The position numbers and the translations under genes were made by a program. From the IMG/VR virus record IMGVR_UViG_3300008116_000004: a stretch of DNA of 64,000 nucleotides; one strand, written 5' to 3'. The stretch comes from a virus. Below are positions 1,267-51,255 of this stretch, in pieces (position 1 is the first letter of the stretch; every line of letters starts with the position of its first letter). The notes beneath the pieces are model-generated. The model was not told where the DNA came from and searched no databases. It was given only the letters and a program-made list of their open reading frames with translations.

Positions 1267-1284
1267 TTTTGTTATGAGGTTATT

Positions 1285-27686: not shown

Positions 27687-29710
27687 TGGCTAAAAAATCT
27701 AGGCAGTTTTCTACCAGTGATTTTACACCTGAACAGGTTGCTAGTAATCCAGCTTTGAAAAAAGCCTATGAAGAAGCATTAGCAGAAGAAACAAAATTAG
27801 CTGCAGAGAAGAAGGCAGCTGCTGCAGAAAAAAGAAAAGAACAAAAAGCTATCAGAGATGCAGAAAAACAAGCTGCAAAACAAACTCTAGATGAAGTAAA
27901 AGAAACTAAGAAAGCATCAACTGCATCTACTACTGCTGCTAGAGATAAGCAAAAGAGAGTAGAAAAGCAAAATCGATTAGAAAATGTTACTAGAAGACTC
28001 CCAGGTGCTGACCGTATAGAAGGTGTAGTATCAGGTACAGCTAGAAATATTGCACGCACTGTTACATCTAGTATAACTGGTAGTACAGGATTAAGAAACT
28101 TAGCACCAAGAGCAGTTGCAGCTAACACATTACAGGCTGCTGGTTTAGGAAGTCTTATTGCTTTGAGTCCTCTTTTTAGTGGTGGTAGAAGAGATAGTAA
28201 ACCAGATTCTCGACCACCTGTAGGTATAGATATTGCACCTCTTATTATCGGGTTTAAACTCTTAGAAGTAAAATTAGATAATATTAATAATAGTATAGTT
28301 AATACAAATGAATATTTACAAGATCTAATTGCAGGTCAATCTCAAGCTGCAAGAGCAAGAATAGAAGAAGACAGAGAAAAGAGAGCACAAAGAGCACCGA
28401 GAGGAGAAGGTGTTACTGCTGTTCCTACTGCTGATGGTAAAGGTGGTATACTAAGTGCATTGAGCGGTCTTCTTCCTTCTATCGGTAGTTTGTTACCAAA
28501 TATTGGTTCAATTACTAAAGTATTTACACCTTTACTTACTGGTTTAAGTAATATTTTTAAAGGTCTATTAAGATTCTCTACTACTGTAGCACTACCAATA
28601 GCTGCATTAGTTGCTATTTTTACATCACTAGAACAGAAAGACTGGTCAGAGATATTTGGTAATTTAAGCAAAGTATTTGATGATCTTTCTAAAGGTAAAT
28701 TCTTAGATGCTTTTGTAAGATTAATAGGTACTATATCTGATACTTTAATCACTGGCGCTGGTAGACTAGTAGCTGATATTTTAGATTTTTTCGGTTTAGA
28801 AAGTGTAGCTAAATCTATAAATGATTTTTTAGATACTGTAGATATTGGTACCACTTATGTAAATGCTGTACAAGCTATAACTGATTATGTGGTAAATGCT
28901 TTTTATGCTGCAAAAGATACTGTAAGTGGATGGATTAATACTGCATTTGATGTTGGTCAAAAATTAATTGATTGGGCAGTTGGTTTAAAAGATAGTATTG
29001 TAAATAAATTTAGCAATGCTAAAGATGAGATTATAGCTTGGTGGGAAAGTTTCTCATTAAGTGCTCTACTAACTGAAAAATTTGAAGAGATAAAAAATAA
29101 AATAATTAATTTTGTAGGTCAAGACAATCTTCAAAAAGTATTTGATGTATTAGATTTCAATGTTGGTGGTTATATTTCTGAAAAGCTAGGTGAAGTGGTA
29201 GATAAAATTAAAAATATGTTTGCTGGTATTACAGATACTATAGGTAATTTCTTATATGAAAAAGGTAAGTTATTTGAAAAAATAGGGTTATCTAATCCGT
29301 TCGAAGGATTTAAATCACAGGCAACTGCTGCCACTGCAGGTGCTACACCACAATCTAGTTTCTCTGCTATGGCTGCTGCTGGTCCTTCTGTACCCCTGAC
29401 AGCTCAAACTTCATATAGAGAAGTACCTATTGATATGGGTGAAGGTGTTACTAGTACAACTACCGAAGCTATTACTACTTTTAAACCTACTGTGAATACT
29501 AAAAATCTTGCTATGGTAGCTCAATCTGGATTTGCTGCAATGGCGGCTGCTGGGCCACCTCAAGTAGTAGTATTACCTGGCTCAGGTACAATGAATAGTT
29601 CAAGAGAACCTAGCACACCTCCTAGAATAAGTTCAGGGGCAGTATCGACCGCCCCTGCACCATCTCTTATGGATCAATCATTATATGGCTTTGGTGCTAA
29701 CTATTATTAA
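27686..29710 (+). CDS. Tape-measure-like baseplate hub protein (gp29-like)
   Basis: Long helical Ala/Lys-rich N-terminus, hydrophobic middle, W/F-periodic repeats; follows gp26/gp51. Confidence 0.65.
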   Translation: MAKKSRQFSTSDFTPEQVASNPALKKAYEEALAEETKLAAEKKAAAAEKRKEQKAIRDAEKQAAKQTLDEVKETKKASTASTTAARDKQKRVEKQNRLENVTRRLPGADRIEGVVSGTARNIARTVTSSITGSTGLRNLAPRAVAANTLQAAGLGSLIALSPLFSGGRRDSKPDSRPPVGIDIAPLIIGFKLLEVKLDNINNSIVNTNEYLQDLIAGQSQAARARIEEDREKRAQRAPRGEGVTAVPTADGKGGILSALSGLLPSIGSLLPNIGSITKVFTPLLTGLSNIFKGLLRFSTTVALPIAALVAIFTSLEQKDWSEIFGNLSKVFDDLSKGKFLDAFVRLIGTISDTLITGAGRLVADILDFFGLESVAKSINDFLDTVDIGTTYVNAVQAITDYVVNAFYAAKDTVSGWINTAFDVGQKLIDWAVGLKDSIVNKFSNAKDEIIAWWESFSLSALLTEKFEEIKNKIINFVGQDNLQKVFDVLDFNVGGYISEKLGEVVDKIKNMFAGITDTIGNFLYEKGKLFEKIGLSNPFEGFKSQATAATAGATPQSSFSAMAAAGPSVPLTAQTSYREVPIDMGEGVTSTTTEAITTFKPTVNTKNLAMVAQSGFAAMAAAGPPQVVVLPGSGTMNSSREPSTPPRISSGAVSTAPAPSLMDQSLYGFGANYY

Positions 29711-30624
29711 TCGTTAGCAAGCTTCTTAAAGAAACTCAAATCATCATCATCCTCATCCCAAGGTGCTGAAGACTCTTGCTTAGCTGCTGGAATTGCAGGT
29801 GCAGGAGCTGCACGTTGTGGTGTCGGGAATGCTTCATCTTCATCGATAGCAGGTGCCATGCGTTGAGCTGAGTCACCAGCAACACCGAGAGCTTTTTCCA
29901 AACGCATCTTAAGTTCTTCATATGACTTAAAGTGCTTAGGATCAAGAAGTTCTTGAAGTGAATGTTCTTTAGACCAGATAGCTTTGATCTGTTCATCGTC
30001 ACCAGCAATAGGTGCAGGTGATTCAAACTCTGACTTATCGTAGTTACGATAGCCTTCTACCTGACGAATCTTGAGCTTGAAGTTAGCACCATCCCAGAAG
30101 TCAAATGGGTTAATTGCCTTCTCATCAGCAAATTGTGGATGCATTGCTTCATTAAGCTTATCAAAGATCTTCTTACCATATTTGAACAAAAATACCTTAC
30201 CGTTGTTTTCAGGACGGGTAGGATCATTGACAACAAGGATATTAGAGAAGTAAGAGAGACGACGCTTCTGCTTACGAACGAGATCTTTGTTTGACTCGAT
30301 ACCAGAGTTCCAGAGCTTTGTATTCATTTCTGAAACAGGATCTGGCTTATTGAAAGTAGTTAGACTCTTCTCGATATACCAACCACCAGGACCTTGGAAC
30401 CCATGATCCCAAATGCGTACGAACGGCATGTCTTCACCAGCTGGGGCGGGAAGGAAACGAATGATCGCATAACCGTTTCCGGCTTTGTCAACGTCTGGCT
30501 TCCAGTAGCGGTCGTCGTTGGTATTGTCTTGGGGAACTGTAGAATTGAGCTTGTTGAGCTCGGATGTGAGTTTGTCAAAGTTAGACTTACGATTTTGTTT
30601 AAGTGCTTCGAAATTAATAGTCAT
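29707..30624 (-). CDS. gp32: Single-stranded DNA-binding protein gp32
   Basis: DKAGNGYAIIRFLP, HGFQGPGGWYIE, GANFKLKIR..YRNYDKSEF, acidic tail. Confidence 0.96.
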   Translation of the reverse strand: MTINFEALKQNRKSNFDKLTSELNKLNSTVPQDNTNDDRYWKPDVDKAGNGYAIIRFLPAPAGEDMPFVRIWDHGFQGPGGWYIEKSLTTFNKPDPVSEMNTKLWNSGIESNKDLVRKQKRRLSYFSNILVVNDPTRPENNGKVFLFKYGKKIFDKLNEAMHPQFADEKAINPFDFWDGANFKLKIRQVEGYRNYDKSEFESPAPIAGDDEQIKAIWSKEHSLQELLDPKHFKSYEELKMRLEKALGVAGDSAQRMAPAIDEDEAFPTPQRAAPAPAIPAAKQESSAPWDEDDDDLSFFKKLAND

Positions 30625-30678: not shown

Positions 30679-31251
30679 TCAACTAAATTTATTGCGAAGT
30701 ATTGCACAGTATTTATCTTTCTCGTAAGAAAGAAATGGATGTAGCTTTTTACAATTCAAAGCTATTTGTGGCCATAAGACAGGGTCTGTAATTTCTTTAT
30801 TCCACTTACTAAAGAAACGAACACAGTCTTGTATGATAATGAAAGTCTCTTTTGAGATCTTTTTGCGTGTGAGTAGAGTGAGAAGGTAGGGATAGTCACC
30901 TGGTTTTACTTCAAAGTTAGCATCGAAGTTTTCAAGAAGATTGTCTATATCACCCTCAAACATATATGTAAGAGTTTGTTTACGTCTTAGAAACTCATTA
31001 TACTTCATCTGCTGATCTAAACCAAATAGATCACCTACCCATAGTTTCTGATTTTCTGAGAGATTAGCAACCAAGAATGTAAGAGGATCTTCATGCTTAG
31101 ATAGTTTATAAAACATATATTTGTCTTTACGAGTTTCAAATGTATGTTCAGATGCTCTCACCTTACCGTTGTATTTAAAGAAGTCATATGACTCTGTTGT
31201 AAAGTGATTCTTGATTGCCGTATAAAGCTTATATGCTTCAAAAGGACTCAT
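30679..31251 (-). CDS. gp59: Helicase loader gp59
   Basis: YKLY.AIKNHF...YDFFKYNGK..RKDKYMF.KL; synteny. Confidence 0.9.
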   Translation of the reverse strand: MSPFEAYKLYTAIKNHFTTESYDFFKYNGKVRASEHTFETRKDKYMFYKLSKHEDPLTFLVANLSENQKLWVGDLFGLDQQMKYNEFLRRKQTLTYMFEGDIDNLLENFDANFEVKPGDYPYLLTLLTRKKISKETFIIIQDCVRFFSKWNKEITDPVLWPQIALNCKKLHPFLSYEKDKYCAILRNKFS

Positions 31252-31481
31252 ATAGGAAGTCGACTCGTCTTTCTTACCATGTTAAGATTTTCTGCTTCTA
31301 CTTGTATCCTAGCTTTTAATAGAGCACTTTGTTTAATAAGTGAAGCAGCTGTCTCTACCTCAACATTATTTGTTTCACAATAATACATTACAGCGTCAAA
31401 AAAAGTTAAATTTTTACTTAAAACTAATTTATCTATTTCTTTAACGAAGTCGGCAGAAGATTTAACGTTGGCTATTTTCAT
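31248..31481 (-). CDS. gp33: Late transcription co-activator gp33
   Basis: DAV.YYCE.NN.EVE....LI...LKARI..EA..LN. Confidence 0.88.
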   Translation of the reverse strand: MKIANVKSSADFVKEIDKLVLSKNLTFFDAVMYYCETNNVEVETAASLIKQSALLKARIQVEAENLNMVRKTSRLPI

Positions 31482-31491
31482 ATTGTACCAT

Positions 31492-32265
31492 TCACTGATT
31501 TACATTTATTATTTTATTATATTTTAAAAAAGAAATAAACGATCCTATAAGATCAAACTCTTTTTTATTAGTAGAGAAATAAGGGTTTCTAGGATCACCA
31601 TGATGATTATTATGCCATGCTTCTCCTAGAGAAACATAAGCAAGAAAAGGTAAGTTTACACTATTATCTTTTGTTTCGTAGTTTCTATAACCAATATTTT
31701 TCATGTGTGAAAATATGTTTACCATACCAGTTACAAACCAGACATAAGCACCTGGTACTAAAAATCCTACTATTGGTCCCATAAACCCGAATATTAAATA
31801 TAAAATTACTATTAGAGAGATGTTAATTAACCAATGATATTTGTATAAGAATACTAGCTCTTTATGCTTTACGTAATCTTTAACAAATGCAACCTTTTGC
31901 TCATGCATAACAAATCCAAAATATGAATTTATAAATCCATGATGAGGACCGTGAGGATCTTTTTCTCTGTCTGTATATGCATGATGCTCTCTGTGAATAG
32001 CAACCCAAGAAAGAGATGGTCCTTGTAATGTAAAAACTGCAATAAAAAGAAAAATATTACGCACCCAATCACTATTAAACTTAAATGCTTTATGTGTTAA
32101 GTAGCGATGGTTGATCATACCTATTCCGATACCACCCATTATAACTGCTATACCATAAGCAATCAACCAATGATACCATGATGCATACATTATCATAGGT
32201 ATAAAGGAAAGATGAGCAATTAATTGAGTTATTAATACAATATAGGAATCTAAAGTATATTTCAT
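31492..32265 (-). CDS. Membrane fatty-acid desaturase (delta-9/OLE1-DesC-like)
   Basis: Three His boxes HRYLTH, HREHH (then DPH), GEAWHNNHH; TM helices; GYRNY.T.D.S.N. Confidence 0.92.
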   Translation of the reverse strand: MKYTLDSYIVLITQLIAHLSFIPMIMYASWYHWLIAYGIAVIMGGIGIGMINHRYLTHKAFKFNSDWVRNIFLFIAVFTLQGPSLSWVAIHREHHAYTDREKDPHGPHHGFINSYFGFVMHEQKVAFVKDYVKHKELVFLYKYHWLINISLIVILYLIFGFMGPIVGFLVPGAYVWFVTGMVNIFSHMKNIGYRNYETKDNSVNLPFLAYVSLGEAWHNNHHGDPRNPYFSTNKKEFDLIGSFISFLKYNKIINVNQ

Positions 32266-32270
32266 TAGTT

Positions 32271-32278
32271 TATTTATA
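32271..32278 (-). promoter_or_regulatory. T4-type late promoter for the desaturase
   Basis: TATAAATA 5 nt before the ATG at 32265. Confidence 0.5.
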
Positions 32279-33431
32279 GACTTGAAAAAGCTAATGTAAT
32301 ATTAGTACCACCAAAACCAAACGAGTTGTTTAAGGTTACTTTTTGTTTGCTATTGTAGATTTCCGTAGGCAGATTAATATCTTTTTTAGATATAGAATTA
32401 TCTAATTCGTCTAAATTCCAATTAGGTATTACCACATCATGTTTTAATGCTAAAAGACATGCAAGTGTCTCTATTGCACCTGCTGCACCAAAAAGATGTC
32501 CATGTAAACTCTTTGTAGAACTGACTGGTATATATTTTGCTTTATCACCAAACAAACTAATTATACTCTGCAATTCAACTATATCACCTGTTGGTGTGCC
32601 TGTACCATGTGCGTTAATATAGGTAATATCGTCAAACAAAATATTTTTAGTTGCAATTTGCATTGCTTTTATTTGTCCTGGTGTGTTAGGTTTAGTAACG
32701 GATTCAGAACCATTAGTAGCACCATACCCTACTATTTCACCGTAAATATTAGCATTTCTTTTCAATGCGTGATCAAGCTCTTCTAATATAAAAATTACTG
32801 AACCCTCAGACATAGTAATACCGTTTCTGTTTTTTGAGAACGGTTTGCAGTCATCACTTAATGCATTCATTGCTTTCCAGAATGCAAATTGTAATTCATT
32901 AATACAAGCTTCCGCACCACCAGCTGCAAGACAATCATACTCCCCATATGCAATTTTTTTATATGCTTCACCGATTGCAGTTGATGCAGATGCACATGCT
33001 GTAGAATATGTAAAAGCTGGACCTGTTATATTCTCTTTTAAAGCAATAAAGTTAGCACCCATATTAACCACTGAGCAAACTAATGCGGTAGGTTTTACTT
33101 TATTCTTAGCAAATAAACTTCTATAAGATTCTTCGTATGTTAATGCACCACCACCATAACCAACACCTAAAAATATACCTTCTGGTTGTACGGAGCTATC
33201 ATTTTTTGCATCTAAGAAAGAAAGGTATGCCAGTCGTGTAAATCTATCAGTGACGTTTAAATCAAATCTATCAAAATGTGAATCTATATTATCTTTAACT
33301 ATATAAGCAGCCGATCCAAATATATACTCTTTGGTACCCTGCTTACCAGTAAAGAGTGATTCTTTAATTTCTGATAAATTATTACCAATAGGTGTTCTAC
33401 TACCTACACCCGTAACTACAACACGTCTCAT
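32274..33431 (-). CDS. Beta-ketoacyl-ACP synthase (FabF/NodE-like)
   Basis: RRVVVTG; catalytic TACAS, NAHGTGT, STKSLHGH; NSFGFGGTN. Confidence 0.93.
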   Translation of the reverse strand: MRRVVVTGVGSRTPIGNNLSEIKESLFTGKQGTKEYIFGSAAYIVKDNIDSHFDRFDLNVTDRFTRLAYLSFLDAKNDSSVQPEGIFLGVGYGGGALTYEESYRSLFAKNKVKPTALVCSVVNMGANFIALKENITGPAFTYSTACASASTAIGEAYKKIAYGEYDCLAAGGAEACINELQFAFWKAMNALSDDCKPFSKNRNGITMSEGSVIFILEELDHALKRNANIYGEIVGYGATNGSESVTKPNTPGQIKAMQIATKNILFDDITYINAHGTGTPTGDIVELQSIISLFGDKAKYIPVSSTKSLHGHLFGAAGAIETLACLLALKHDVVIPNWNLDELDNSISKKDINLPTEIYNSKQKVTLNNSFGFGGTNITLAFSSL

Positions 33432-33685
33432 TCTTTATCGATATTTTCGTAGAGGTAATCGATCAATTCTTCAATAGTTGTAGCACCACTTTCAATAGTA
33501 ATAGTATTAATTTTAAAGATATCTTCTAATTCAGACATAAAAGTTATTACTTCTAGTGAGTCTAGCTTTTCATTTAATTCTTTAAGACGGGATAACGGAT
33601 AGCTTCTATCAAATGTGCTAAGATCAATACCGTAACTTTTATTAAAGTGATCAAAAACTACTTTTGCGATCTCTTCTTTGGTCAT
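33428..33685 (-). CDS. Acyl carrier protein
   Basis: 85 aa, acidic, LDSLE phosphopantetheine site, ELEDIF..TIEELIDY. GGAGA RBS before ATG 33685; ATGA overlap with the KS. Confidence 0.85.
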   Translation of the reverse strand: MTKEEIAKVVFDHFNKSYGIDLSTFDRSYPLSRLKELNEKLDSLEVITFMSELEDIFKINTITIESGATTIEELIDYLYENIDKE

Positions 33686-33703
33686 TATAATCTCCATAAT
33701 ATA

Positions 33704-34045
33704 GTGTGAGGTGTTTCTGTTTCCAAGCACACCTCACGAAGCTCATGTGACTCAGGCTGCTAGAGCGTAAGCACCATATGCATTGTTATCGTTTGCATTT
33801 ACGAGTTTGCATCAGTCTCAGGTTAGCCTTTACTACACCTGTCGATCCTGTTTCGCCCCCATCAAAGATACACTGTGAGACACCGCTTTGCTCAGTGCGA
33901 ACAGTTATATACTAGTCTCTTCCGCCTTACCCTCTTTATAATAGGAGGACTGTTGCACCCAACGACCAGTGTATCCGTGGTGGAGGCGGCGGGTACTGCC
34001 CCCGCGTCCAGAATGTCTATTCTACTTCCGTCAACGACATCAGCT
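33704..34045 (-). ncRNA. ssrA: Circularly permuted (two-piece) tmRNA gene
   Basis: Acceptor piece ends GACGCGGGGGCAGTACCCGCCGCCTCCACCA (CCA end at 33978). 117-nt intervening segment. Coding piece starts GGGGGCGAAACAGGATCGAC at 33860. G3:U acceptor pair. Tag ANDNNAYGAYALAA* at 33796-33752. Outer boundaries approximate. Confidence 0.93.
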
Positions 34046-34048
34046 CTT

Positions 34049-34081
34049 TATTTATAGTATAGTTAAAAATTAAAATCAACT
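34049..34081 (-). promoter_or_regulatory. tmRNA promoter (overlapping sigma70-like and late elements)
   Basis: AG-TTGATT (34079-34074)-N17-TATAAA, with TATAAATA at 34056-34049. Confidence 0.6.
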
Positions 34082-34082
34082 G

Positions 34083-34286
34083 TTAAATCTTACCCCAATC
34101 GATCTTATTCCATATTCTCTCATTAATAAAATAAGACAAAGTCCATAAACAGTTAATAATAATAGTAGGTATAATTGCATCAGCCATATTCTGACCAGTA
34201 ACAAGAAGCATGATATAAGTTGTCATAATTACAAACAACCTGTAAATTAACGACTTAACAATCGTTCTTTTAAGAGTAGCTTTCAT
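34083..34286 (-). CDS. DUF2061-like small membrane protein
   Basis: R.IVKS..YR..YF.NERIWNKI.WG. Confidence 0.75.
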   Translation of the reverse strand: MKATLKRTIVKSLIYRLFVIMTTYIMLLVTGQNMADAIIPTIIINCLWTLSYFINERIWNKIDWGKI

Positions 34287-34981
34287 ACGTTATACTTCTC
34301 TTTATACTCTTGTCTTACTTGCATTAGTTTATTAACATATACATCTCTACGATCTTCAAATATCTGCGGCACTTCATTATCAACAGAAATTAAAATAACT
34401 ATTCTACTTACTGGTATATTATATCTCTCTTCAAACATAATAGCATATGCAGAGGCTTGACAAAAGTAATTAAGAATATAATCTCTGTTTTTATGTTTAC
34501 GAGCTGTCTTAAAATCAATAATAGAAAGTTTACCTTTCCATTCTGCAACACAGTCTACAGTACCTGCCATCTGAAGATGATCGGAATACATTCTTGTTTC
34601 TTGCAATCTTACATTATCAATATGATTATCTAAGAGAGGTTTTAACTCTTTAAAATTTAAAGAGTCGTTATAGTTATACTTAGAATAATCTATCTCATCA
34701 TTGTTAATGTAATCTTCACATAATTGATGAATACGAGTACCTCTAGTAGCAGCTTGTGTGCTGATACGAGTAGCTTCTTCTTCACCTACTTTTCTTCTCC
34801 ATTCCTGAATAGCTTTCTGATTCATAATACCTGTAACTGTAGTAACAGACGGATATAATAAACCTTCTGGCGTTTTATAATATCTACCAGAGTCTGTATT
34901 AACCTGTTCAAGTATATTATTTACTTCAGGAATCTCGATATGATTAAAAGTTTTTCTTTGTTTTAAAATATTTTCTAGCAT
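34283..34981 (-). CDS. PD-(D/E)XK (Cas4-like) exonuclease
   Basis: YPSVTTV, RGT.IH..CE, AGTVDC..IIDFKT..Q..AYA. Confidence 0.88.
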   Translation of the reverse strand: MLENILKQRKTFNHIEIPEVNNILEQVNTDSGRYYKTPEGLLYPSVTTVTGIMNQKAIQEWRRKVGEEEATRISTQAATRGTRIHQLCEDYINNDEIDYSKYNYNDSLNFKELKPLLDNHIDNVRLQETRMYSDHLQMAGTVDCVAEWKGKLSIIDFKTARKHKNRDYILNYFCQASAYAIMFEERYNIPVSRIVILISVDNEVPQIFEDRRDVYVNKLMQVRQEYKEKYNV

Positions 34982-34982
34982 G

Positions 34983-35672
34983 TTACTTTATAAAATGATA
35001 ATCACCATCAGGTCCATTATCACTAAAAGCATTATCGTCAACTAAAATAAATCCCTTAGAACGTATATAATCAATAATAATATCTTTATGTGGTGCACCT
35101 TTGTTGTATTCTACTTTTTGTAATTCCATAATAAGATGTTTTGTATGCTGTAAACAGATATCAGCACCTTTAAGTACGTCTAGTTCTGCACCTTGTACAT
35201 CTATCTTAATCAGATCTGGTAAAGGAAAGTTTTTATTTTTAACTACATTATCTAAAGTAGATGTAGTATATTCTTTAATATGAGATTCGTTAAAATAATG
35301 TTCTGCACCAGAATTAAATTTAGGGTTTTCTCTGTAGTAAGAATTTCCACCAGGAAAAAAATTGTTCTGATAGAATTTAACTATATTACCAGTAGCGTCT
35401 GATAGTACACCGATGTTATAACCAGCAATATCAGAATCTTTAAAAATAAATTCTACTTCAGGCATTGCTTCAAAGCAGTAGAAGTTAGATGTAGGCCATA
35501 TTTGTTTTGCTTCATTTGTCCAGTGAAGTACACAAGCACCTATATCGTAAACTACCTCAGGTACAAACTTATAGTAGTTTTTAATTCTACTAAGATAGTT
35601 AGAATGCACCTGAGGTAGTAATTTTTTTTCGCTTAATTCTTTAAGATGTTTTTCAATTTCATTCATAATCAA
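34983..35672 (-). CDS. FkbM-family SAM methyltransferase
   Basis: YDIGA, FEA, LIKIDVQGAELDVLKG. Confidence 0.88.
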   Translation of the reverse strand: MIMNEIEKHLKELSEKKLLPQVHSNYLSRIKNYYKFVPEVVYDIGACVLHWTNEAKQIWPTSNFYCFEAMPEVEFIFKDSDIAGYNIGVLSDATGNIVKFYQNNFFPGGNSYYRENPKFNSGAEHYFNESHIKEYTTSTLDNVVKNKNFPLPDLIKIDVQGAELDVLKGADICLQHTKHLIMELQKVEYNKGAPHKDIIIDYIRSKGFILVDDNAFSDNGPDGDYHFIK

Positions 35673-36445
35673 TTTAAGTAAGTAGATACTGTATCAGTCT
35701 CCTTATTAATATATCTTCTATTTTCCATAGCAGTCTTTTTAATAATAAAGTCTTTTACTAGTCCTGATCTTACAATATCCTCTTCTACAAATTCTACTGA
35801 ACTAAAATATTTATTCATTCTCTCTAGTATTTTCATAAATTTAAGAATACCAGATCTTTCATCATCATATACTAGATCAGTTTGTCTATAATCTCCACAG
35901 AAAATTATTCTTGAATTTTTACCTACACGTGTTATAACAGTGCATAGTTCACTATAGGTCATATTTTGACATTCATCTACTATAATTATAGTATTATCTA
36001 AAGTTGTTCCTCTTAGAAATGATGTTGTCTGGAAGTCTATTATACCTTTACCTTTAAGTATCTCATATGCATCACCTCTACCGTAAAGTTCTGAGCATAT
36101 TGATTGATAAGGTAGTTCAAATATTTTTGATTTTTCTTTTATTGAACCGGGAAGAAATCCCATATCTCGGGAAGGCACCACTGATCGTATCAGTGTAATA
36201 TTATTGTAGTCTTTATACTGTTCTATTTCTGAAAGAGCAAGGTAGAGTGAAATGAATGATTTGCCGGTACCAGGCAATCCATGTATTAAAATGTTTCTAC
36301 CATTTGAAAAGTCTTTGAACACACACTCCTGATTTTTTGTTTTGGGGATAATCGATTTGAGTATTAGGTTATTTTTTACTTGTTTAGCCTCTTGACGCTT
36401 TTGTTGTTTAATTAATCTCTTTTCAGCGCGTGTGAGTCTTTCCAT
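35669..36445 (-). CDS. phoH: PhoH-family ATPase
   Basis: GLPGTGKS, MGFLPG, FLRGTT, DECQN, TRVG, GDYRQ.D, DIVRSGLV. Confidence 0.95.
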   Translation of the reverse strand: MERLTRAEKRLIKQQKRQEAKQVKNNLILKSIIPKTKNQECVFKDFSNGRNILIHGLPGTGKSFISLYLALSEIEQYKDYNNITLIRSVVPSRDMGFLPGSIKEKSKIFELPYQSICSELYGRGDAYEILKGKGIIDFQTTSFLRGTTLDNTIIIVDECQNMTYSELCTVITRVGKNSRIIFCGDYRQTDLVYDDERSGILKFMKILERMNKYFSSVEFVEEDIVRSGLVKDFIIKKTAMENRRYINKETDTVSTYLN

Positions 36446-36460
36446 GTGGTACCTCTTTTT

Positions 36461-36694
36461 TTACCAGGTGTTGACGGTACTCCCTCTATGTGCTCTTTTC
36501 ACTTTCTTTAAAACATCACGAAAACCTCCATCAGGTTTTCTCAAACCTAATCGAGTTGGATCTGCAATAGCAGGAGCCGATAATACTTGTTGAAGATGTG
36601 GGTTGTTTTCTACGTAGGCATCGTATTCAGAGATCGGCATGGATATGTCGAACTCTTTACCAGTTTTAGTATCATAAAACGTATAATTAGCCAT
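36461..36694 (-). CDS. FmdB-like small protein (no Cys)
   Basis: M..YTF....TG.EF..M......NPH..Q, KPD.GF.DVL; usual T4-like neighbour of phoH. Confidence 0.6.
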   Translation of the reverse strand: MANYTFYDTKTGKEFDISMPISEYDAYVENNPHLQQVLSAPAIADPTRLGLRKPDGGFRDVLKKVKRAHRGSTVNTW

Positions 36695-36884
36695 TAACTA
36701 AAATGCCTTTCGACTTCCAATAATCCTGGATGTCTTTTTTATTTAGGGGATCTAACCCTTTAGAAAGCATTTCTTCTTCAACTAAATCTTGTAAATATGC
36801 TTTTTCATTAAGATTTCTAGGATTATAATACTCATCTATCAACTTATCTACTGTTACTTTAGTACTGTTAAGAATCTGAGACAC
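36687..36884 (-). CDS. Hypothetical protein
   Basis: ORF in tightly overlapping operon. Confidence 0.6.
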   Translation of the reverse strand: MSQILNSTKVTVDKLIDEYYNPRNLNEKAYLQDLVEEEMLSKGLDPLNKKDIQDYWKSKGILVNG

Positions 36885-37053
36885 CTAACATCTCCCTAAG
36901 TTTGTGTTGAACTCTTTTAAGAGCAGCTGGTTCGTGTTCATTGAATACTATGAGGGTCTCTTGAACACCTTTTTTGCGACCCTCAAGCCAATAATAGAAT
37001 GCTACCACTGCAATAAGCAGAGTATATAAAACTGCGCTTGTTATATTATCCAT
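36868..37053 (-). CDS. Hypothetical membrane-anchored protein
   Basis: N-terminal TM helix followed by basic residues. Confidence 0.6.
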   Translation of the reverse strand: MDNITSAVLYTLLIAVVAFYYWLEGRKKGVQETLIVFNEHEPAALKRVQHKLREMLGVSDS

Positions 37054-37250
37054 TAGTCGTCTTCGTATGATAAGAGTTTATCAAGATCTTTTGAGCGTAA
37101 AGCATTATCATAATTACGGTAATGCTTCTGCATTTTTTCTCGTTTTACTTCTCTAAAACTGAGATTTTCTTCTTCTGTAATGTAACTGTTATTAAAAGTC
37201 TTTTTTTTATTTTTAAATTCTGTTTTATGGAATTTAGTAGAGTTGTTCAT
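37053..37250 (-). CDS. Hypothetical protein
   Basis: Coupled ORF in operon. Confidence 0.55.
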   Translation of the reverse strand: MNNSTKFHKTEFKNKKKTFNNSYITEEENLSFREVKREKMQKHYRNYDNALRSKDLDKLLSYEDD

Positions 37251-37675
37251 TCTGGAATAAGCCCTGGAAATGCTAGGTTAACTACTTCTTTTGTAATGCC
37301 CTTAAAAGGACATTTTTTATCTTTCATGCTTAAAAGAAGCTTAGCATCATCTGCACTTACATTTTCAAGCATCTGGATAAAAATCTGTTCTCGCCTCATC
37401 GGCTTAAGATTCGGATTTCCACCTTCTACTAACAAATAAAAGCGAGGCACTTCGTTAATAAATGCCTTAGGTTCATCAAATTTATTTGGAATATAAGGTG
37501 GTACACCTTCTGGTAAAAGAAATTTAACATTAGGATCGAACCAGCCTGCAAGCACAGTTCGCACTGCTAAATTATTATTAAGTTTAAGCGCTTGCACTCG
37601 TTCTTCTTTTTTCTTCAATTCATTAATTTTAGCAAATAACTTTGCTACACCATCAATCTTATATTGAAATGACAT
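37247..37675 (-). CDS. Conserved T4-like hypothetical protein downstream of rnh
   Basis: FDP.VKFLLPEG.PPY, RRE..FIQMLE, KDKK..FKGIT..VV..AFP. Confidence 0.75.
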   Translation of the reverse strand: MSFQYKIDGVAKLFAKINELKKKEERVQALKLNNNLAVRTVLAGWFDPNVKFLLPEGVPPYIPNKFDEPKAFINEVPRFYLLVEGGNPNLKPMRREQIFIQMLENVSADDAKLLLSMKDKKCPFKGITKEVVNLAFPGLIPE

Positions 37676-38535
37676 TAGAAATCACCTATATTTTCCATCA
37701 TATTTTTAAGTTTATAATTAATAAAATAGTTAAACAGTTTACTCTTATCCTTACCTTGTTCGCTGAGATATTTATTAATAACTTCGGTTCGAATACTATC
37801 TGGTACCATTGATAGATCCACCATATGCTTATTACGCATAAAGTTTCTATCTGTAGTACTATCTAAGAGCACTGCACCATCATTGTAGATCTTATTAATC
37901 TTTTTCTGAGTAAGAGGTTTCTGACGTTTATCAGCTACAAAAGTATCATCATCAGATAATACATTTGGTATACCATCACCAACATCACCTTTAAGAATAT
38001 GCTCTACAAGAAAGCGCTCTGGATTATCATGTGTAATCCATTTCTTTCTTACTGGGTCATATTGCTTAACGTTAGACTGTGTTTGTAATTGAACGAAGTC
38101 TTTATCACCAGAAAGGATAATAATCTTATGTACATCGTTAGTATGTTTGACTAGTGATGCAATAATATCATCAGCTTCAGCTGTATCGACCTGAATGACA
38201 GGATAGGGCAAATTATCTTTTATTTCTTGTTTAATTTTATTAAAGATATCAAATATATTAGTCCAATTTAATTCAGACTCTTCACGATTCTTTTTACGGT
38301 TGGCTTTGTAGTAAGGGAAGATCTGCTTACGCCAATAGTTCTTATCATCACATGCTATAATCATCTCACCATATTCTTCACCAAACTTCTGTTTGTATGA
38401 ACGAAGTGAGTTGATCACCATATGACGAAACAATCCTTCTTCGATAGGAATGTTCGTATGATTTCCAATCTGCATCATCAGATTAGATATCATGACTTGG
38501 TTAAAATCAACGATAATCATTTTAAATGTTTCCAC
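37675..38535 (-). CDS. rnh: T4-type RNase H (5'-3' exonuclease)
   Basis: YWRK..FPYYKANRK, EADDII, SGDKDF.QL, GD..DGIPN. Confidence 0.93.
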   Translation of the reverse strand: METFKMIIVDFNQVMISNLMMQIGNHTNIPIEEGLFRHMVINSLRSYKQKFGEEYGEMIIACDDKNYWRKQIFPYYKANRKKNREESELNWTNIFDIFNKIKQEIKDNLPYPVIQVDTAEADDIIASLVKHTNDVHKIIILSGDKDFVQLQTQSNVKQYDPVRKKWITHDNPERFLVEHILKGDVGDGIPNVLSDDDTFVADKRQKPLTQKKINKIYNDGAVLLDSTTDRNFMRNKHMVDLSMVPDSIRTEVINKYLSEQGKDKSKLFNYFINYKLKNMMENIGDF

Positions 38536-38572
38536 ATAAATCTGTACTATAATATATTATATAGTTATTAAT

Positions 38573-38923
38573 TTATGTGTGCAAGTTATTTTCTTCAATT
38601 ATTCTATCCAATTCTTTCTTAGCATCTGCTTCTAGTGTGATTGTAGCTTCTGCTAAGTCTTGAAACGAATGATTCAGATCTTTTGTTGTATAAACCATAG
38701 CACGGATTGCTTCTTCTAAGAAAACTACCGATTTTACTACACTTTCATCTGGTTTAATTGTGAGACCATAAGATGTAAGTACTGCAAAGACTGCTTCGAA
38801 AGCATCTGCTGTTACTTCATCACAATATGTACGTCTCACTTGTTCAACATGATCTATAGTCTGTTCAAGATTATTTGGAAAAGGACTGTTAGATTTTGTT
38901 GGAAATTGTATAATGTTGTCCAT
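38573..38923 (-). CDS. Hypothetical protein
   Basis: Likely start MDNIIQFP at 38923 (track gives 38962). Confidence 0.6.
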   Translation of the reverse strand: MDNIIQFPTKSNSPFPNNLEQTIDHVEQVRRTYCDEVTADAFEAVFAVLTSYGLTIKPDESVVKSVVFLEEAIRAMVYTTKDLNHSFQDLAEATITLEADAKKELDRIIEENNLHT

Positions 38924-38951
38924 ATTTCTGCCATATAGTATGGTGACATTA

Positions 38952-39350
38952 TTATTTATCATACTTTATAGCTTGTATGATTACTGCAGCTGCCACCGTT
39001 TTTTTATCTTTAGTAATAGAAGCAATAATAGATGGTCTATAATTATTTGGTACTATAGCACTCAATCTATTTGATGCTCCACCAAAGAGTTTTATTTCGG
39101 GTGCACCTGATGTGTTATAAAACAAAACTATATCTTTAGGTCTTACGTTATTATCAAATCCAGTACCTAAAGCTTTTGCGCACGCTTCTTTAATTGCAAA
39201 ACGTTTAGCATAATAAACAGCTTCGTTTGTATCTTCAGTAATTTCTTCTTGAGAAAAATTATTTTTGATAAATCTTTCTCTGATTGATCTCTTTAATATA
39301 TCTTTAATTCTAGATACATTACAGAGATCAATTCCAATTCCTATAATCAT
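38952..39350 (-). CDS. acpS: Holo-ACP synthase (4'-phosphopantetheinyl transferase)
   Basis: MIIGIGID..RI, AKRFAIKEA.AKALGTG, G.P.I.L, SIT.D. Confidence 0.92.
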   Translation of the reverse strand: MIIGIGIDLCNVSRIKDILKRSIRERFIKNNFSQEEITEDTNEAVYYAKRFAIKEACAKALGTGFDNNVRPKDIVLFYNTSGAPEIKLFGGASNRLSAIVPNNYRPSIIASITKDKKTVAAAVIIQAIKYDK

Positions 39351-40456
39351 TTAACTACTTTAAGTAGAATTACATTGTTGTTAATTCTATCTGAAAATGT
39401 GATAGGATCTGATGAGATATCATCCATAAGTTTACGAAGTACTATCTTACCTCCAGAAAGTACTTTCTTGATATACTCTTCTGGTTTACGACCGATACGT
39501 TTAGTTACGGAAGAATCGCTATCAAAGCCATCAATAGAAGTGCGCCGTACACTGAGACCAGCAGGCCCACGAGCCCTAAACACGCTAAGAGTTTTGTACT
39601 TAGTATTAAAGGTCCAAAGTTCTTGAGAGCCGATAACCGTTGCGGGGTCACACGATTGTAATTTATACTCATTGCTTTCTTTCTGATATTGGAAATGTTT
39701 CAAGAGTTTTTCTGTGGTAGGAGCTTTCTTCTTACGAGGAGCACGAGCTTTCTTTACATTACCTGCAAAGCGCTCGCAGTCCTCGATAAGCTTAGCGACA
39801 TATGCTAACTTAGCTTTTAATTGAGGCTTCGTATAGTGAGTGTAGCCCTCATTGTCTTCGACAACAGCGTAAGCATACTCATCACGAAGAGGCCTATAAA
39901 ATTCAGCAATTCTGTTCGCATGTTGAGCCGGTATCTCATTTTTCTGTAACCACTCATAAATGTTGACCTGTTCACCTGAATCAAGAATAGCTTCTACATC
40001 ACCAATAATATCTGAAACGCGTTCTTTGATACGTTCCTGAATAGACGGTTTAACTTTAAGTTCAGCAGGTTTTACTTCTACCTCCTCACCTATGTTAGTC
40101 ATATTTCTAATATCATCTATAACACGTTTATATTCAAAGTCTTTAAGATGTGCTTTATTATTAGATGCAATACGGCACATCCATGCAGACGTCAAGGGTA
40201 AACGCTTCTCAGGTATACGATCAATAGCCTTAATCATATCCTTATCAGTCTTAAAATATTCTTTGAGGTAAGCACGAGCTTCCTCATTCTCACACATAGT
40301 ATTATACCATGTGAATGCTCGGATTAACTCAACGGTACCTGGATTAATACCTACCTTAGGTTCATCACCAAGATACTTCCAGTTAACCAGATAGGTTTCT
40401 GACTTAGTAGTACGTTTAGTCTTTTTCGTTTTGACTTTAAGTAATGACTTAGCCAT
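39347..40456 (-). CDS. Conserved T4-like hypothetical protein
   Basis: SIQERI, S.DP..VIG..ELW.FNTK, RIN...ILL; start MAKSLL with GAGG RBS. Confidence 0.7.
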   Translation of the reverse strand: MAKSLLKVKTKKTKRTTKSETYLVNWKYLGDEPKVGINPGTVELIRAFTWYNTMCENEEARAYLKEYFKTDKDMIKAIDRIPEKRLPLTSAWMCRIASNNKAHLKDFEYKRVIDDIRNMTNIGEEVEVKPAELKVKPSIQERIKERVSDIIGDVEAILDSGEQVNIYEWLQKNEIPAQHANRIAEFYRPLRDEYAYAVVEDNEGYTHYTKPQLKAKLAYVAKLIEDCERFAGNVKKARAPRKKKAPTTEKLLKHFQYQKESNEYKLQSCDPATVIGSQELWTFNTKYKTLSVFRARGPAGLSVRRTSIDGFDSDSSVTKRIGRKPEEYIKKVLSGGKIVLRKLMDDISSDPITFSDRINNNVILLKVVK

Positions 40457-40481
40457 TGTACCTCTCACGTTACAGTAAGAT

Positions 40482-44385: not shown

Positions 44386-44631
44386 TTATTTATTAATGCT
44401 AATAATTGAGTCAAATCTAAAAGAACGCCAACCTTCTTTATCTACATCCCATACTGAAATAATATTTTCATTTATTTTTTTATCACGATCTGTTTTCTTT
44501 TCATGAGGTTTAATAAATGCATCCATAAGCGTGCATTTCATATCACGCTCAGAACCATCAGTTTTTGTAAATTTAATATTTACAATACCTGAATGTAGCA
44601 TATTCATAACGTTAGTTTTAGATAGCTCCAT
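44386..44631 (-). CDS. WYL_2/Sm-like beta-barrel protein
   Basis: FTKTDGSERDMKCTL..VWD....GWRSFR; likely start MELSKT. Confidence 0.75.
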   Translation of the reverse strand: MELSKTNVMNMLHSGIVNIKFTKTDGSERDMKCTLMDAFIKPHEKKTDRDKKINENIISVWDVDKEGWRSFRFDSIISINK

Positions 44632-44869
44632 CACCGTATCCACCGGCTGTCTCCTCAAGATATTCTTTCAATTCTTCATAACCACCAATACGTTTGCCAT
44701 CAATTGTAATGATCGGTACCGTTCTCACTCCTGGAAACATTTCAGTTATTTCTGTGAGACCTACATCCTCACCTACTGAATAGTATTTGTAATTGATACC
44801 TTTACTGTTAAGTAATTCTTTAGCTTTCACACACCAATTACAATTCTGTTTACCATATACCTCAATCAT
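44618..44869 (-). CDS. nrdC: Glutaredoxin
   Basis: CNWC, RTVP.I..DG..IGGY. Confidence 0.9.
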   Translation of the reverse strand: MIEVYGKQNCNWCVKAKELLNSKGINYKYYSVGEDVGLTEITEMFPGVRTVPIITIDGKRIGGYEELKEYLEETAGGYGDGAI

Positions 44870-50575: not shown

Positions 50576-50854
50576 TTATTTTTGTTCGTTGACAGTTTTT
50601 TCTGCATCATCGTAAAACTGCTTAACTGCATCAAGTTTTTGTTTGCAGGTTACATTATTCTTTTGCAGTTTTAGGATAAGAGCTCCAACTTGTTTATTAG
50701 TCAAAGTATCAGCTTTAGGAAACTTAGTTTCTACCGGGCATGTATACATATCATCTGGTGCTTTAACAATTTTATATTCTGGTGCTAGTAATTGTACAGC
50801 TGTCTGTGAACATCCGGTTAATAATAATGGAAATAATAAAATTAATCTTTTCAT
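50576..50854 (-). CDS. o-spanin-like lipoprotein
   Basis: Lipobox LLTGC, Pro/Cys content, overlaps end of i-spanin-like gene. Confidence 0.7.
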   Translation of the reverse strand: MKRLILLFPLLLTGCSQTAVQLLAPEYKIVKAPDDMYTCPVETKFPKADTLTNKQVGALILKLQKNNVTCKQKLDAVKQFYDDAEKTVNEQK

Positions 50855-51255
50855 TTCTTTTTCTCACCATAAGCTGCATCTAGCTGTTTTACAATACTCT
50901 TAAGGTATGGAACTGCATCATCTGATACTGGTGCAGTTGTAGGAGTCTTTGGTTTTGACTCTTCATCTGCTTTCTTTTCAATTTCATCTAGTTGTTTCTT
51001 TGCATCAGCTTCTTGCTGTGCAATAATTTCTCTTATACGATCAGCATTAGTTTTGATAGTTTCTGTCTTTTCCTTGAACTCTTCTTCTTTTTTGTTGAAG
51101 AGTTCTTGCTGCATCATATTAAACTTCTCGGTAGCCTCATTCCATAAATTATGATCATGAATTGCTAACCAGGTAAAGAAAGAGCTGGATAGTAAAACTA
51201 CTATACCAATTATCTGCCCTATTCTATTACCCATAAAGAAACTTAAGAATGCCAT
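50851..51255 (-). CDS. i-spanin-like protein
   Basis: N-terminal TM followed by coiled coil; adjacent to a lipoprotein. Confidence 0.7.
   Translation of the reverse strand: MAFLSFFMGNRIGQIIGIVVLLSSSFFTWLAIHDHNLWNEATEKFNMMQQELFNKKEEEFKEKTETIKTNADRIREIIAQQEADAKKQLDEIEKKADEESKPKTPTTAPVSDDAVPYLKSIVKQLDAAYGEKKK

What the first reader, a model, noticed from the sequence alone, without database searches (positions are those of the whole stretch)
31492..39350. Self-contained phage acyl-chain pathway: ACP + ketosynthase + desaturase, with a phage AcpS
Seen: consecutive same-strand genes for an ACP (DSL serine), a KS with intact Cys-His-His triad (ATGA-coupled to the ACP) and a membrane desaturase with all three His boxes. 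They are inserted between the exonuclease and gp33 of the core T4-like block. An intact AcpS lies about 5 kb upstream on the same strand. Known: lone desaturases are described in cyanophages, and ACP/KS/PPTase is the minimal set to prime, elongate and modify an acyl chain. Inference: the phage makes or remodels a specific unsaturated lipid, for example for membrane remodelling, acylation of a virion or host target, or a signal molecule. I know of no characterised phage system with all four parts. No FabG/FabZ/FabD or acyltransferase is in the window, so host enzymes or genes elsewhere are needed.
Basis: partly seen in the sequence, partly recalled or inferred. Interest (0 to 1): 0.9.

Follow-up and report, generated by a model that had tools for sequence, protein, structure and literature searches.

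The report
Phage acyl-carrier, ketosynthase, desaturase module
An uncultured T4-like phage, probably of a freshwater alphaproteobacterium, carries intact genes for an acyl carrier protein, the enzyme that activates it, a fatty-acid chain-extending enzyme and a membrane desaturase. The set looks like a working lipid module that still depends on host enzymes, and its product is unknown.

Summary
All four genes lie on the minus strand and are intact:
- ACP, 33428-33685, with a DSL serine and an ACP fold.
- FabF-like ketosynthase (KS), 32274-33431, with the Cys-His-His triad, overlapping the ACP stop in ATGA.
- SCD1/Δ9-type membrane desaturase (Des), 31492-32265, with all metal ligands.
- AcpS, 38952-39350.

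It is not self-contained. I found no FabD, FabG, FabZ/A, acyltransferase, thioesterase or acyl ligase in the window or in a 118-kb relative.

Comparative picture:
- ACP-KS, just downstream of an alphaproteobacterial-type permuted tmRNA and upstream of gp33, is the fixed core in every related phage contig examined.
- AcpS occupies one slot in most relatives but not all.
- The desaturase is present only in the window's sub-lineage.
- An unrelated phage lineage carries ACP-Des-KS built with a different desaturase clade.
- Other viral contigs repeatedly join this mostly viral desaturase family to ACP and AcpS.
- dN/dS is 0.08-0.25 for ACP, KS and Des.

Prior art: Zaragoza-Solas 2020 lists fabF, stearoyl-CoA desaturase and acpP as pelagimyophage AMGs, without AcpS or any module analysis. 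The scan had noted similar ACP/desaturase cassettes on other DNA.

Best reading (about 0.5): a host-FAS-dependent module that elongates and desaturates acyl chains on a phage carrier. Main rival: a dedicated thiotemplated lipid product. I rate it a new variant of a known kind, interest 0.58.

The parts
33428..33685 (-). Acyl carrier protein, 85 aa, acidic (pI 4.4). The phosphopantetheine serine lies in KLDSLE at the start of helix II. The stop codon overlaps the KS start (ATGA).
   Evidence: profile to PDB ACP 2n50, 2.9e-7; AF2 model; all top hits carrier proteins, nearly all ACPs; GGAG RBS, pI. Pfam PP-binding is below its cut-off.
32274..33431 (-). FabF-like (KAS II-like) elongating ketosynthase, 385 aa, about 25 aa shorter than bacterial FabF. 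It belongs to a clade made up only of phage or uncultured sequences.
   Evidence: 1j3n 7.6e-70, catalytic motifs kept; TIGR03150 316 bits against a 494 cut-off; 43-row clade, support 100, stem 0.70.
31492..32265 (-). Small membrane fatty-acid desaturase of the SCD1/DesC/DesA (Δ9-type) class, 257 aa, with four TM segments and eight His plus the Asn/His metal ligands.
   Evidence: invariant ligands; family clusters 65-85% viral; hydropathy.
38952..39350 (-). AcpS-type 4'-phosphopantetheinyl transferase, 132 aa, basic (pI 9.5). It is packed between two conserved phage genes of unknown function (39347-40468 and 38573-38962).
   Evidence: TIGR00516 above cut-off; nearest cellular relatives are alphaproteobacterial AcpS at 47-49%.
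33705..34083 (-). Permuted (two-piece) alphaproteobacterial-type tmRNA gene directly upstream of the ACP, preceded by a T4-late-promoter-like TATAAATA at 34049-34056. It is a conserved neighbour of ACP-KS in all T4-like relatives checked. It is context, not shown to belong to the lipid function.
   Evidence: RF01849 121 bits, E 1e-34; same arrangement in L073, L075, L002, L081, L086.

Best explanation
This is an auxiliary lipid module of a T4-like phage whose host is probably a freshwater alphaproteobacterium. An LD12/SAR11-type host is suggested but not shown. The proposed sequence of events is:
1. The phage makes its own acidic acyl carrier protein.
2. The phage AcpS converts it to the holo form. 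In relatives that lack AcpS, the host AcpS would do this.
3. The FabF-like ketosynthase condenses an acyl thioester with malonyl-ACP and so extends acyl chains.
4. Host type II FAS enzymes must supply everything else: malonyl loading (FabD), the three reduction and dehydration steps (FabG, FabZ/A, FabI) and transfer into lipids (PlsX/Y/C or PlsB).
5. In the window's sub-lineage a Δ9-type di-iron membrane desaturase then inserts a cis double bond, either into the acyl-ACP or into the resulting membrane lipids.

The net effect would be to sustain acyl-chain supply in the infected cell and shift it towards longer and more unsaturated chains.

Shown here: the gene identities, intact catalytic residues, gene order, conservation, purifying selection and recurrence in other phages.

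Inferred: holo-ACP formation, use of host FAS partners, the desaturase's substrate and regiochemistry, and the physiological effect.
For: - All four enzymes or carriers are intact, with their defining residues.
- ACP and KS are translationally coupled (ATGA), and the desaturase follows after 8 nt.
- ACP-KS sits at the same place (tmRNA-ACP-KS-gp33) in every related contig examined: L001-3, L073, L075-78, L081-91.
- AcpS sits in the same slot in L001, L073 and L075-78.
- In my loci every AcpS hit has an ACP hit within ±10 kb.
- dN/dS is 0.13-0.19 for ACP against the four closer relatives (0.37 against the more distant L081), 0.14-0.20 for KS and 0.08-0.13 for Des (dS is saturated, so the values are rough).
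- The ACP-KS-Des-gp33 arrangement was found on 18 contigs carrying an identical desaturase, and in variants 78-82% identical.
- The ACP resembles FAS-type ACPs (bacterial and mitochondrial) and keeps an acidic helix II. This is compatible with use of host FAS enzymes.
- From established knowledge of E. coli lipid metabolism: FabF and Δ9 desaturases are the two classical levers of chain length and unsaturation.
Against: - There is no biochemical or expression evidence.
- The KS scores well below the FabF equivalog cut-off (316 against 494 bits) and sits on a long, phage-only branch. FabF-like specificity is therefore not assured.
- A separate phage ACP and PPTase are not obviously needed if the aim is only to boost host FAS.
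- The same desaturase family is repeatedly joined to ACP and AcpS in other viral contigs that also hold an AMP-ligase, halogenase, FabA or PP-loop enzyme. That pattern points to dedicated pathways.
- Most relatives lack the desaturase, so ACP-KS must have a role without it.
Confidence: 0.5

Rival explanations
1. The module is a dedicated thiotemplated pathway. The phage ACP carries a specific acyl chain, the KS extends it, and the membrane desaturase modifies it while it is still on the carrier, as JamB and the polyyne desaturases do. The product would be a specialised unsaturated (possibly 3-oxo) acyl product used as a signal, toxin or acyl donor for a phage or host target, and not bulk membrane lipid.
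For: - The ACP is divergent (NCBIfam ACP 23 bits against a 66 cut-off) and the phage has its own PPTase.
- The KS clade contains no cellular sequences among those sampled.
- An independent ACP-Des-KS cassette exists in a second phage lineage with a different desaturase clade.
- 13 of 68 desaturase-seeded IMG/VR loci have an ACP hit in the locus, most of them beside the desaturase, and 12 have AcpS.
- Related viral clusters add FabA and a PP-loop enzyme (L040), or an AMP-ligase and a Trp-halogenase-like gene (L055).
- ACP-dependent membrane desaturases are an established precedent: JamB (bioRxiv 10.1101/291195) and cay/pgn (PMC9828172).
Against: - No loading enzyme (acyl-AMP/ACP ligase or acyltransferase) and no off-loading enzyme (thioesterase, condensation or acyltransferase domain) was found in 60 scanned ORFs of the window.
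- The 118-kb relative has no FabD-type or PlsC-type acyltransferase. It was not searched for an acyl ligase or a thioesterase.
- Most relatives have ACP-KS only.
- The ACP is closest to FAS-type ACPs.
Confidence: 0.28
2. There are two independent functions. ACP-KS (± AcpS) serves a role unrelated to unsaturation, for example keeping short or medium acyl-ACP flowing for lipoate or biotin, or taking over malonyl flux. The desaturase would be an ordinary stand-alone acyl-lipid vFAD that happened to insert beside it.
For: - The desaturase is absent from most ACP-KS phages.
- Most viral members of this desaturase family stand without ACP or KS.
- Stand-alone vFADs are established (PMC5776448, PMC7300359).
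Against: - Desaturase-KS-ACP adjacency arose at least twice, with different desaturase clades and gene orders.
- The spacing in the window is tight, at 8 nt.
- Desaturase-ACP-AcpS linkage is recurrent elsewhere.
Confidence: 0.14
3. The genes are decaying host-derived passengers without function.
For: - The ACP falls below the Pfam cut-off.
- The KS falls below the FabF equivalog cut-off.
- AcpS is only about 38% identical to its positional counterpart in sister phages.
Against: - All catalytic residues are intact.
- dN/dS is well below 1.
- The arrangement is conserved across many samples and divergent relatives.
- There are no frameshifts or internal stops.
Confidence: 0.03

Closest known systems
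Pelagimyophage AMG lists, especially freshwater 'fonsimyophages' PMP-D (Zaragoza-Solas et al. 2020, PMC7029224)
   Same: - T4-like phages of SAR11/LD12.
- The paper names fabF and stearoyl-CoA desaturase as genes unique to the freshwater group. Its Table S5 also lists acpP.
- The window shares the T4-like core, an alphaproteobacterial-type tmRNA, PhoH, PstS and 2OG-Fe(II) oxygenase genes.
   Different: - The paper gives one sentence and table rows only. It has no AcpS, no cassette structure, no conservation analysis and no mechanism.
- I could not fetch PMP-MAVG-15/20, so identity of the window with that group is not tested.
- No near-identical DNA exists in the GenBank phage set.
Viral stand-alone fatty-acid desaturases: cyanophage vFAD-I/II (Roitman et al. 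2017, PMC5776448) and Arctic brine/sea-ice vFADs (PMC7300359)
   Same: - Membrane Δ9-type desaturases with three His boxes carried by phages.
- They are proposed to tune host membrane unsaturation. The cyanophage enzymes were shown to be Δ9 on C16 in yeast.
   Different: - Those are lone genes acting on lipids.
- Here the desaturase is coupled to a KS and a dedicated ACP, with a phage PPTase.
- No cyanophage record matches the window desaturase at E ≤ 1e-5. The only cultured-phage hit is Pelagibacter phage Mosig at 27.7%.
Bacterial type II FAS elongation: AcpP, AcpS, FabF
   Same: - The same three protein families with the same catalytic residues.
- The ACP is acidic with a DSL serine.
- The KS aligns end to end with FabF structures.
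   Different: - The KS is about 25 aa shorter, about 40% identical to bacterial FabF at most, and below the equivalog cut-off.
- The ACP carries a two-residue insertion before DSL and is below the family cut-offs.
- FabD/G/Z/I/H are absent from the phage.
Thiotemplated desaturase cassettes: JamABC/TtuABC (terminal alkyne) and cay/pgn polyyne clusters (bioRxiv 10.1101/291195; PMC9828172)
   Same: A membrane FA_desaturase-family enzyme is genetically coupled to a dedicated ACP. In those systems the desaturase acts on acyl-ACP.
   Different: - Those cassettes have an acyl-AMP/ACP ligase, and the polyyne clusters also have a thioesterase. Neither is present here.
- They have no FabF-type KS in the core.

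Membership tests
Beta-ketoacyl-ACP synthase II (FabF; TIGR03150 / PF00109+PF02801) | Two-domain thiolase-fold KS (N and C Pfam domains above their cut-offs) | tested here: met
   PF00109 124 bits and PF02801 106.9 bits, cut-offs 20.8.
Beta-ketoacyl-ACP synthase II (FabF; TIGR03150 / PF00109+PF02801) | Cys-His-His catalytic triad plus the conserved Lys and gating Phe | tested here: met
   The alignment to 1j3n shows TACAS, NAHGTGT, STKSLHGH and NSFGFGG conserved.
Beta-ketoacyl-ACP synthase II (FabF; TIGR03150 / PF00109+PF02801) | Score at or above the curated FabF equivalog cut-off | tested here: not met
   TIGR03150 316 bits against a 493.75 cut-off, and NF005589 310 against 387. It is FabF-like but cannot be filed as an orthologue.
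Acyl carrier protein (PF00550 / AcpP-like) | Conserved Ser in a D-S-L motif at the N-terminus of helix II of a four-helix bundle | tested here: met
   D42 and S43 are invariant in nine homologues. The AF2 model has helix 43-56, and all top PDB hits are carrier proteins, nearly all ACPs, with TM 0.57-0.77.
Acyl carrier protein (PF00550 / AcpP-like) | Score at or above the curated family cut-offs | tested here: not met
   PF00550 17.2 against 20.8, and NF002150 23.3 against 66. A profile of the phage family does reach PDB ACPs at 2.9e-7 over the full length.
Acyl carrier protein (PF00550 / AcpP-like) | Carries 4'-phosphopantetheine in vivo | not testable with these tools
   Needs mass spectrometry of the expressed protein.
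AcpS-type phosphopantetheinyl transferase (PF01648 / TIGR00516) | Score above the curated cut-offs, about 120-130 aa single-domain form | tested here: met
   PF01648 43.8 against 25. TIGR00516 74.7 against 59.8 and TIGR00556 60.9 against 45.35.
AcpS-type phosphopantetheinyl transferase (PF01648 / TIGR00516) | N-terminal G-x-D Mg-binding motif and the central FxxKEAxxKAxG motif | tested here: met
   GIGIDL and FAIKEACAKALGTG align with 3qmn.
Membrane Δ9-type fatty-acid desaturase (PF00487; SCD1/DesC/DesA class) | Three His boxes (HxxxxH, HxxHH, HxxHH) plus the TM4 Asn/His that bind the di-metal centre | tested here: met
   H53/H58, H91/H94/H95, N183/H187 and H218/H221/H222 are invariant in 28 sequences and aligned to SCD1.
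Membrane Δ9-type fatty-acid desaturase (PF00487; SCD1/DesC/DesA class) | Four transmembrane helices | tested here: met
   The hydropathy scan gives two N-terminal and two central hydrophobic stretches. The Atlas model has pLDDT 0.90 and TM 0.89 to acyl-CoA desaturase-family clusters.
Membrane Δ9-type fatty-acid desaturase (PF00487; SCD1/DesC/DesA class) | Regiospecificity (Δ9) and substrate head group (CoA, glycerolipid or ACP) | not testable with these tools
   The only evidence is resemblance to SCD1 (1.8e-9) and to the DesA family (83 bits against a 400 cut-off).
Cyanophage vFAD families I/II (Roitman 2017) | Close sequence kinship to DesC-like cyanophage desaturases | tested here: not met
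   tblastn against 50,697 phage records gave one hit only, Pelagibacter phage Mosig at 27.7%. No cyanophage matched.
Thiotemplated desaturase cassette (JamABC / polyyne type) | Dedicated ACP genetically coupled to a membrane desaturase | tested here: met
   ACP-KS-Des are contiguous here. ACP-Des-KS occurs in L074 and L079.
Thiotemplated desaturase cassette (JamABC / polyyne type) | Acyl-AMP/acyl-ACP ligase that loads the carrier (and a thioesterase in polyyne clusters) | tested here: not met
   No AMP-binding or thioesterase family appeared among the 60 window ORFs scanned.

The most novel reading that the evidence does not exclude
Phages of several lineages carry a portable, thiotemplated 'carrier + desaturase (+ ketosynthase)' system. 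In it a mostly viral family of mini-desaturases works on acyl chains held by a phage-encoded, phage-activated ACP. In this T4-like phage the product would be a specific unsaturated (possibly 3-oxo) acyl compound with a role of its own during infection, such as a signal, an inhibitor or an acyl donor, and not ordinary membrane fatty acid.
Probability: 0.27. Interest if true: 0.8.

Novelty: new variant of a known kind. Interest (0 to 1): 0.58.

Why it matters
Phage lipid genes have so far been treated as lone desaturases that loosen host membranes. Here a desaturase sits in a tight cassette with a dedicated carrier protein, a chain-extending enzyme and, nearby, the activating transferase. The carrier-ketosynthase pair is fixed across a whole clade of T4-like phages that probably infect abundant freshwater alphaproteobacteria.

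That makes three questions testable:
- Do phages run part of fatty-acid synthesis on their own carrier?
- Can membrane desaturases of this mostly viral family use acyl-ACP?
- What lipid change does an infected streamlined host need?

The four proteins are small and easily expressed, so the biochemistry is within reach.

Tried and rejected
- **Complex prediction, desaturase plus ACP.** It returned no verdict (score 0.00), so it counts neither for nor against binding.
- **Whole genome.** None is held for the window.
- **ARAGORN.** It found no tmRNA, although Rfam finds one clearly.
- **Host identification by tmRNA.** BLAST against 401 alphaproteobacterial species matched only the universally conserved 30-60 nt cores, so there is no finer host call. 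The AcpS relatives pointed to Hyphomicrobiales-type AcpS at 47-49%, which shows only an alphaproteobacterial affinity.
- **AcpS tree.** With 135 columns it was unresolved. Independent acquisition and fast divergence of AcpS cannot be told apart.
- **TATAAATA at 32271-32278.** It overlaps the KS stop only 5 nt before the desaturase ATG. I treat it as chance and not as a late promoter.
- **FkbM methyltransferase (34983-35672).** I considered it as a module member and rejected it. It is absent from L087, which has the identical desaturase, and from all other relatives.
- **Lipase_3 (51255-52016).** I considered it as a fatty-acid supplier. It lies close to an Rz1-like lysis gene, separated by one ORF (50851-51255), and is absent from the 118-kb relative, so it is more likely lysis-related.
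- **Cluster names.** The listing of cluster members gave no organism names for the desaturase or AcpS relatives.
- **The search of earlier findings by sequence.** The look-up with the L074 KS returned nothing.

Full report
**1. What is there**

The region lies in a minus-strand run of T4-like replication genes. In order these are: gp32 (29707-30624), gp59 (30679-31251), gp33 (31248-31481), then the cassette, then a PD-(D/E)XK nuclease, an FkbM methyltransferase, PhoH, small ORFs, DUF6433 and RNase H (37675-38535).

- **Ketosynthase (KS), 32274-33431.** It has both ketoacyl-synthase domains (1e-35 and 8e-31). It aligns end to end with FabF structures, best with Thermus 1j3n at 7.6e-70. The active-site Cys, both His, the Lys and the gating Phe are kept.
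- **Desaturase (Des), 31492-32265.**
  - It is a 257-aa FA_desaturase (1.4e-21).
  - Its three His boxes and TM4 Asn/His are invariant across 28 relatives and align to SCD1.
- **ACP.**
  - This is the weakest single call by Pfam (17.2 bits against 20.8).
  - A GGAG site fixes its start at 33685, giving 85 aa with pI 4.4.
  - A profile of the phage homologues reaches solved ACPs over the full length (2.9e-7).
  - An AF2 model (pLDDT 83) places Ser43 at the start of helix II.
  - All 50 top Foldseek hits are carrier proteins or domains, nearly all ACPs.
- **AcpS, 38952-39350.** It passes the curated TIGR00516 cut-off and keeps the Mg and CoA motifs.
- **Gene spacing.** ACP and KS overlap in ATGA. 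KS-Des and Des-gp33 are 8 and 10 nt apart.

**2. It is not self-contained**

I scanned 60 of the 78 non-overlapping ORFs of the window against Pfam. I found no FabD, FabG, FabZ/A, FabI-type reductase, acyltransferase, thioesterase, AMP-ligase or ferredoxin.

A 118-kb relative (about 69% complete) has none of five families: Acyl_transf_1, adh_short_C2, FabA, PlsC-type acyltransferase or Lipase_3. Any chain building therefore needs host enzymes.

**3. Relatives**

No GenBank phage record has similar DNA. None has the KS, ACP or AcpS either, apart from fragment records that look like host DNA. PHROGs has no family for these three proteins.

Uncultured sequences tell more.

- **KS family.**
  - The KS has about 34 cluster relatives at 47-98% identity. 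After that the best matches drop to bacterial FabF at about 40%.
  - In a tree these 43 sequences form one clade (support 100, stem 0.70 substitutions per site), apart from all the bacterial FabF included.
  - The T4-like set (29 rows, support 99) is nested inside that clade.
- **Fixed core.** All T4-like contigs show the order tmRNA, ACP, KS, gp33.
- **AcpS.**
  - It sits in one slot, between a conserved 373-aa and a 129-aa phage gene, in L001, L073 and L075-78.
  - It is missing from that slot in L002, L003 and L081, and from the whole 118-kb record.
  - The window's AcpS is only about 38% identical to that of its sisters, although the flanking RNase H is 88-91% identical.
  - It is 47-49% identical to cellular alphaproteobacterial AcpS.
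  - The tree could not decide between replacement and fast divergence.
- **Desaturase.** It occurs only in the window's sub-lineage. That sub-lineage comprises 18 contigs with an identical protein plus variants at 78-82%, always in the order ACP-KS-Des-gp33.

**4. Independent recurrence**

A second, unrelated phage lineage (L074, L079, L080) carries ACP-Des-KS. Its context includes DNA ligase, WYL_2, Metallophos, PHO4, SOD and MazG, and its KS is 53% identical to the window's. Its desaturase is only about 30% identical to the window's and falls in another clade of the desaturase tree.

The desaturase family itself is large and mostly viral. The Atlas clusters have 1309, 295 and 54 members and are 65-85% viruses.

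Of the 68 IMG/VR loci that I seeded only with the desaturase:
- 13 have an ACP hit in the locus. In most it lies beside the desaturase, often as a convergent gene of about 80 aa directly 3' of it.
- 12 have AcpS.
- 9 have a KS-like gene.
- Every AcpS-bearing locus also has an ACP.

Some of these loci are richer. L040 has a KS, an ACP, FabA, a PP-loop enzyme, AcpS, the desaturase and a second ACP. L055 has an AMP-ligase, a Trp-halogenase-like gene, the desaturase and a KS.

**5. Selection**

Pairwise dN/dS by the NG86 method is:
- 0.13-0.19 for ACP against the four closer relatives, and 0.37 against the more distant L081
- 0.14-0.20 for KS
- 0.08-0.13 for the desaturase
- 0.25-0.46 for AcpS

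dS is saturated, so these are rough, but all indicate constraint.

**6. Host and prior art**

The 350-nt 'gap' upstream of the ACP is a permuted alphaproteobacterial-type tmRNA (RF01849, 121 bits). It is conserved in all five T4-like relatives tested. The window also has 33-35% G+C, gp32 at about 53% identity to HTVC008M and cyanophages, and its only cultured-phage desaturase hit in pelagimyophage Mosig. Together these point to an alphaproteobacterial host.

Zaragoza-Solas et al. 2020 reported that freshwater pelagimyophages (PMP-D, host Ca. Fonsibacter) uniquely carry fabF and a stearoyl-CoA desaturase. Their Table S5 also lists acpP. They do not mention AcpS, the cassette or its conservation. 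I could not test whether the window belongs to PMP-D.

My other searches found no paper on a phage ACP/KS/PPTase system. Lone viral desaturases are well described.

Earlier notes of this scan describe ACP/desaturase operons in giant freshwater phages, and an AcpS-ACP-Des-KS cassette on other DNA. These are unchecked AI notes that agree with what I saw in the IMG/VR loci.

**7. Mechanism**

The best reading (about 0.5) is a host-FAS-dependent module:
- The carrier is made holo by the phage or host AcpS.
- The KS extends acyl chains using malonyl-ACP.
- Host FabD/G/Z/I complete the cycles.
- The desaturase adds a cis double bond to the acyl-ACP or to lipids.
- The net effect is a shift in chain length and unsaturation in the infected cell.

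The main rival (about 0.28) is a dedicated thiotemplated product, by analogy with JamB and the polyyne desaturases, which act on acyl-ACP. The recurrent ACP and AcpS linkage favours this rival. The absence of any loading or release enzyme argues against it.

A third reading (about 0.14) treats ACP-KS and the desaturase as unrelated neighbours. Gene decay is disfavoured.

A complex prediction for the desaturase with the ACP gave no verdict and is not used as evidence.

**8. Verdict**

I rate it a new variant of a known kind (phage lipid auxiliary genes). Parts of it are already catalogued in print. The module structure, its AcpS, the tmRNA-linked conserved core and its recurrence across phage lineages were not described in any paper I found. 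Interest is 0.58.

Noticed in passing
window 33705-34083 (-): A permuted (two-piece) alphaproteobacterial-type tmRNA gene sits in what looks like an intergenic gap (RF01849 121 bits; RF04321 106 bits). Its tag reads ANDNNAYGAYALAA, and a roughly 100-nt insertion lies between the two pieces. TATAAATA lies just upstream. ARAGORN missed it. It is conserved directly upstream of ACP-KS in L073, L075, L002, L081 and L086.
   Followed up: partly
window 51255-52016 (-) and 50576-50854 (-): A class-3 lipase (Lipase_3 1.7e-21; phrog esterase/lipase) lies one ORF away from an Rz1-like LysC gene. It may be a lytic lipase and not part of lipid synthesis. It is absent from the 118-kb relative.
   Followed up: partly
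window 60725-61258 and 61255-61902 (-): DUF6267 is split over two overlapping ORFs that match profile positions 204-376 and 2-196. This could be a frameshift, a programmed shift or a true split.
   Followed up: no
window 34983-35672 (-): An FkbM-family methyltransferase is inserted between PhoH and the PD-(D/E)XK nuclease only in this window. It is absent at that slot from all relatives, including L087, which has the identical desaturase.
   Followed up: yes
window 55007-55444 (-), 62944-63867 (-), 44618-44869 (-): Other auxiliary genes are present: a Dps/ferritin-like protein, a PstS phosphate-binding protein and a glutaredoxin. The ferritin-like gene might bear on iron supply for di-iron enzymes, but this is pure speculation.
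   Followed up: no
window 38952-39350 versus L073:4601-4993 and L075:4638-5033: AcpS is only about 38% identical between the window and its sister phages, although it occupies the same slot and the flanking RNase H is 88-91% identical. It is closer (47-49%) to cellular alphaproteobacterial AcpS. This could be a xenologous replacement, but it is unresolved.
   Followed up: partly
L056, L015, L028, L052 (IMG/VR contigs): These contigs hold tandem arrays of six to nine paralogous mini-desaturases. L056 also has a KS, an ACP and AcpS. The arrangement recalls the multi-desaturase sets of bacterial polyyne clusters.
   Followed up: no
L055:6836-12453 (also L049, L057, L058): A viral contig cluster encodes an AMP-binding ligase, a Trp-halogenase-like flavoenzyme, a desaturase, a conserved 199-aa ORF and a KS. 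The gene set recalls the jamaicamide JamA/JamB plus halogenase logic.
   Followed up: no
L040:4730-10879 (also L007, L022, L034, L041): A viral cluster encodes a KS, a 125-aa ACP, a FabA-like dehydratase, a PP-loop (QueC-like) enzyme, AcpS, a 182-aa ORF, a desaturase and a convergent 83-aa ACP. The 182-aa ORF, which has no Pfam family, precedes the desaturase in 17 loci.
   Followed up: partly
window 1255-4011 (+) and 2-1229 (-): A 918-aa protein fuses GT1 and GT2 glycosyltransferase domains. Next to it is a collagen-repeat protein with a T7-tail-fibre-like domain.
   Followed up: no
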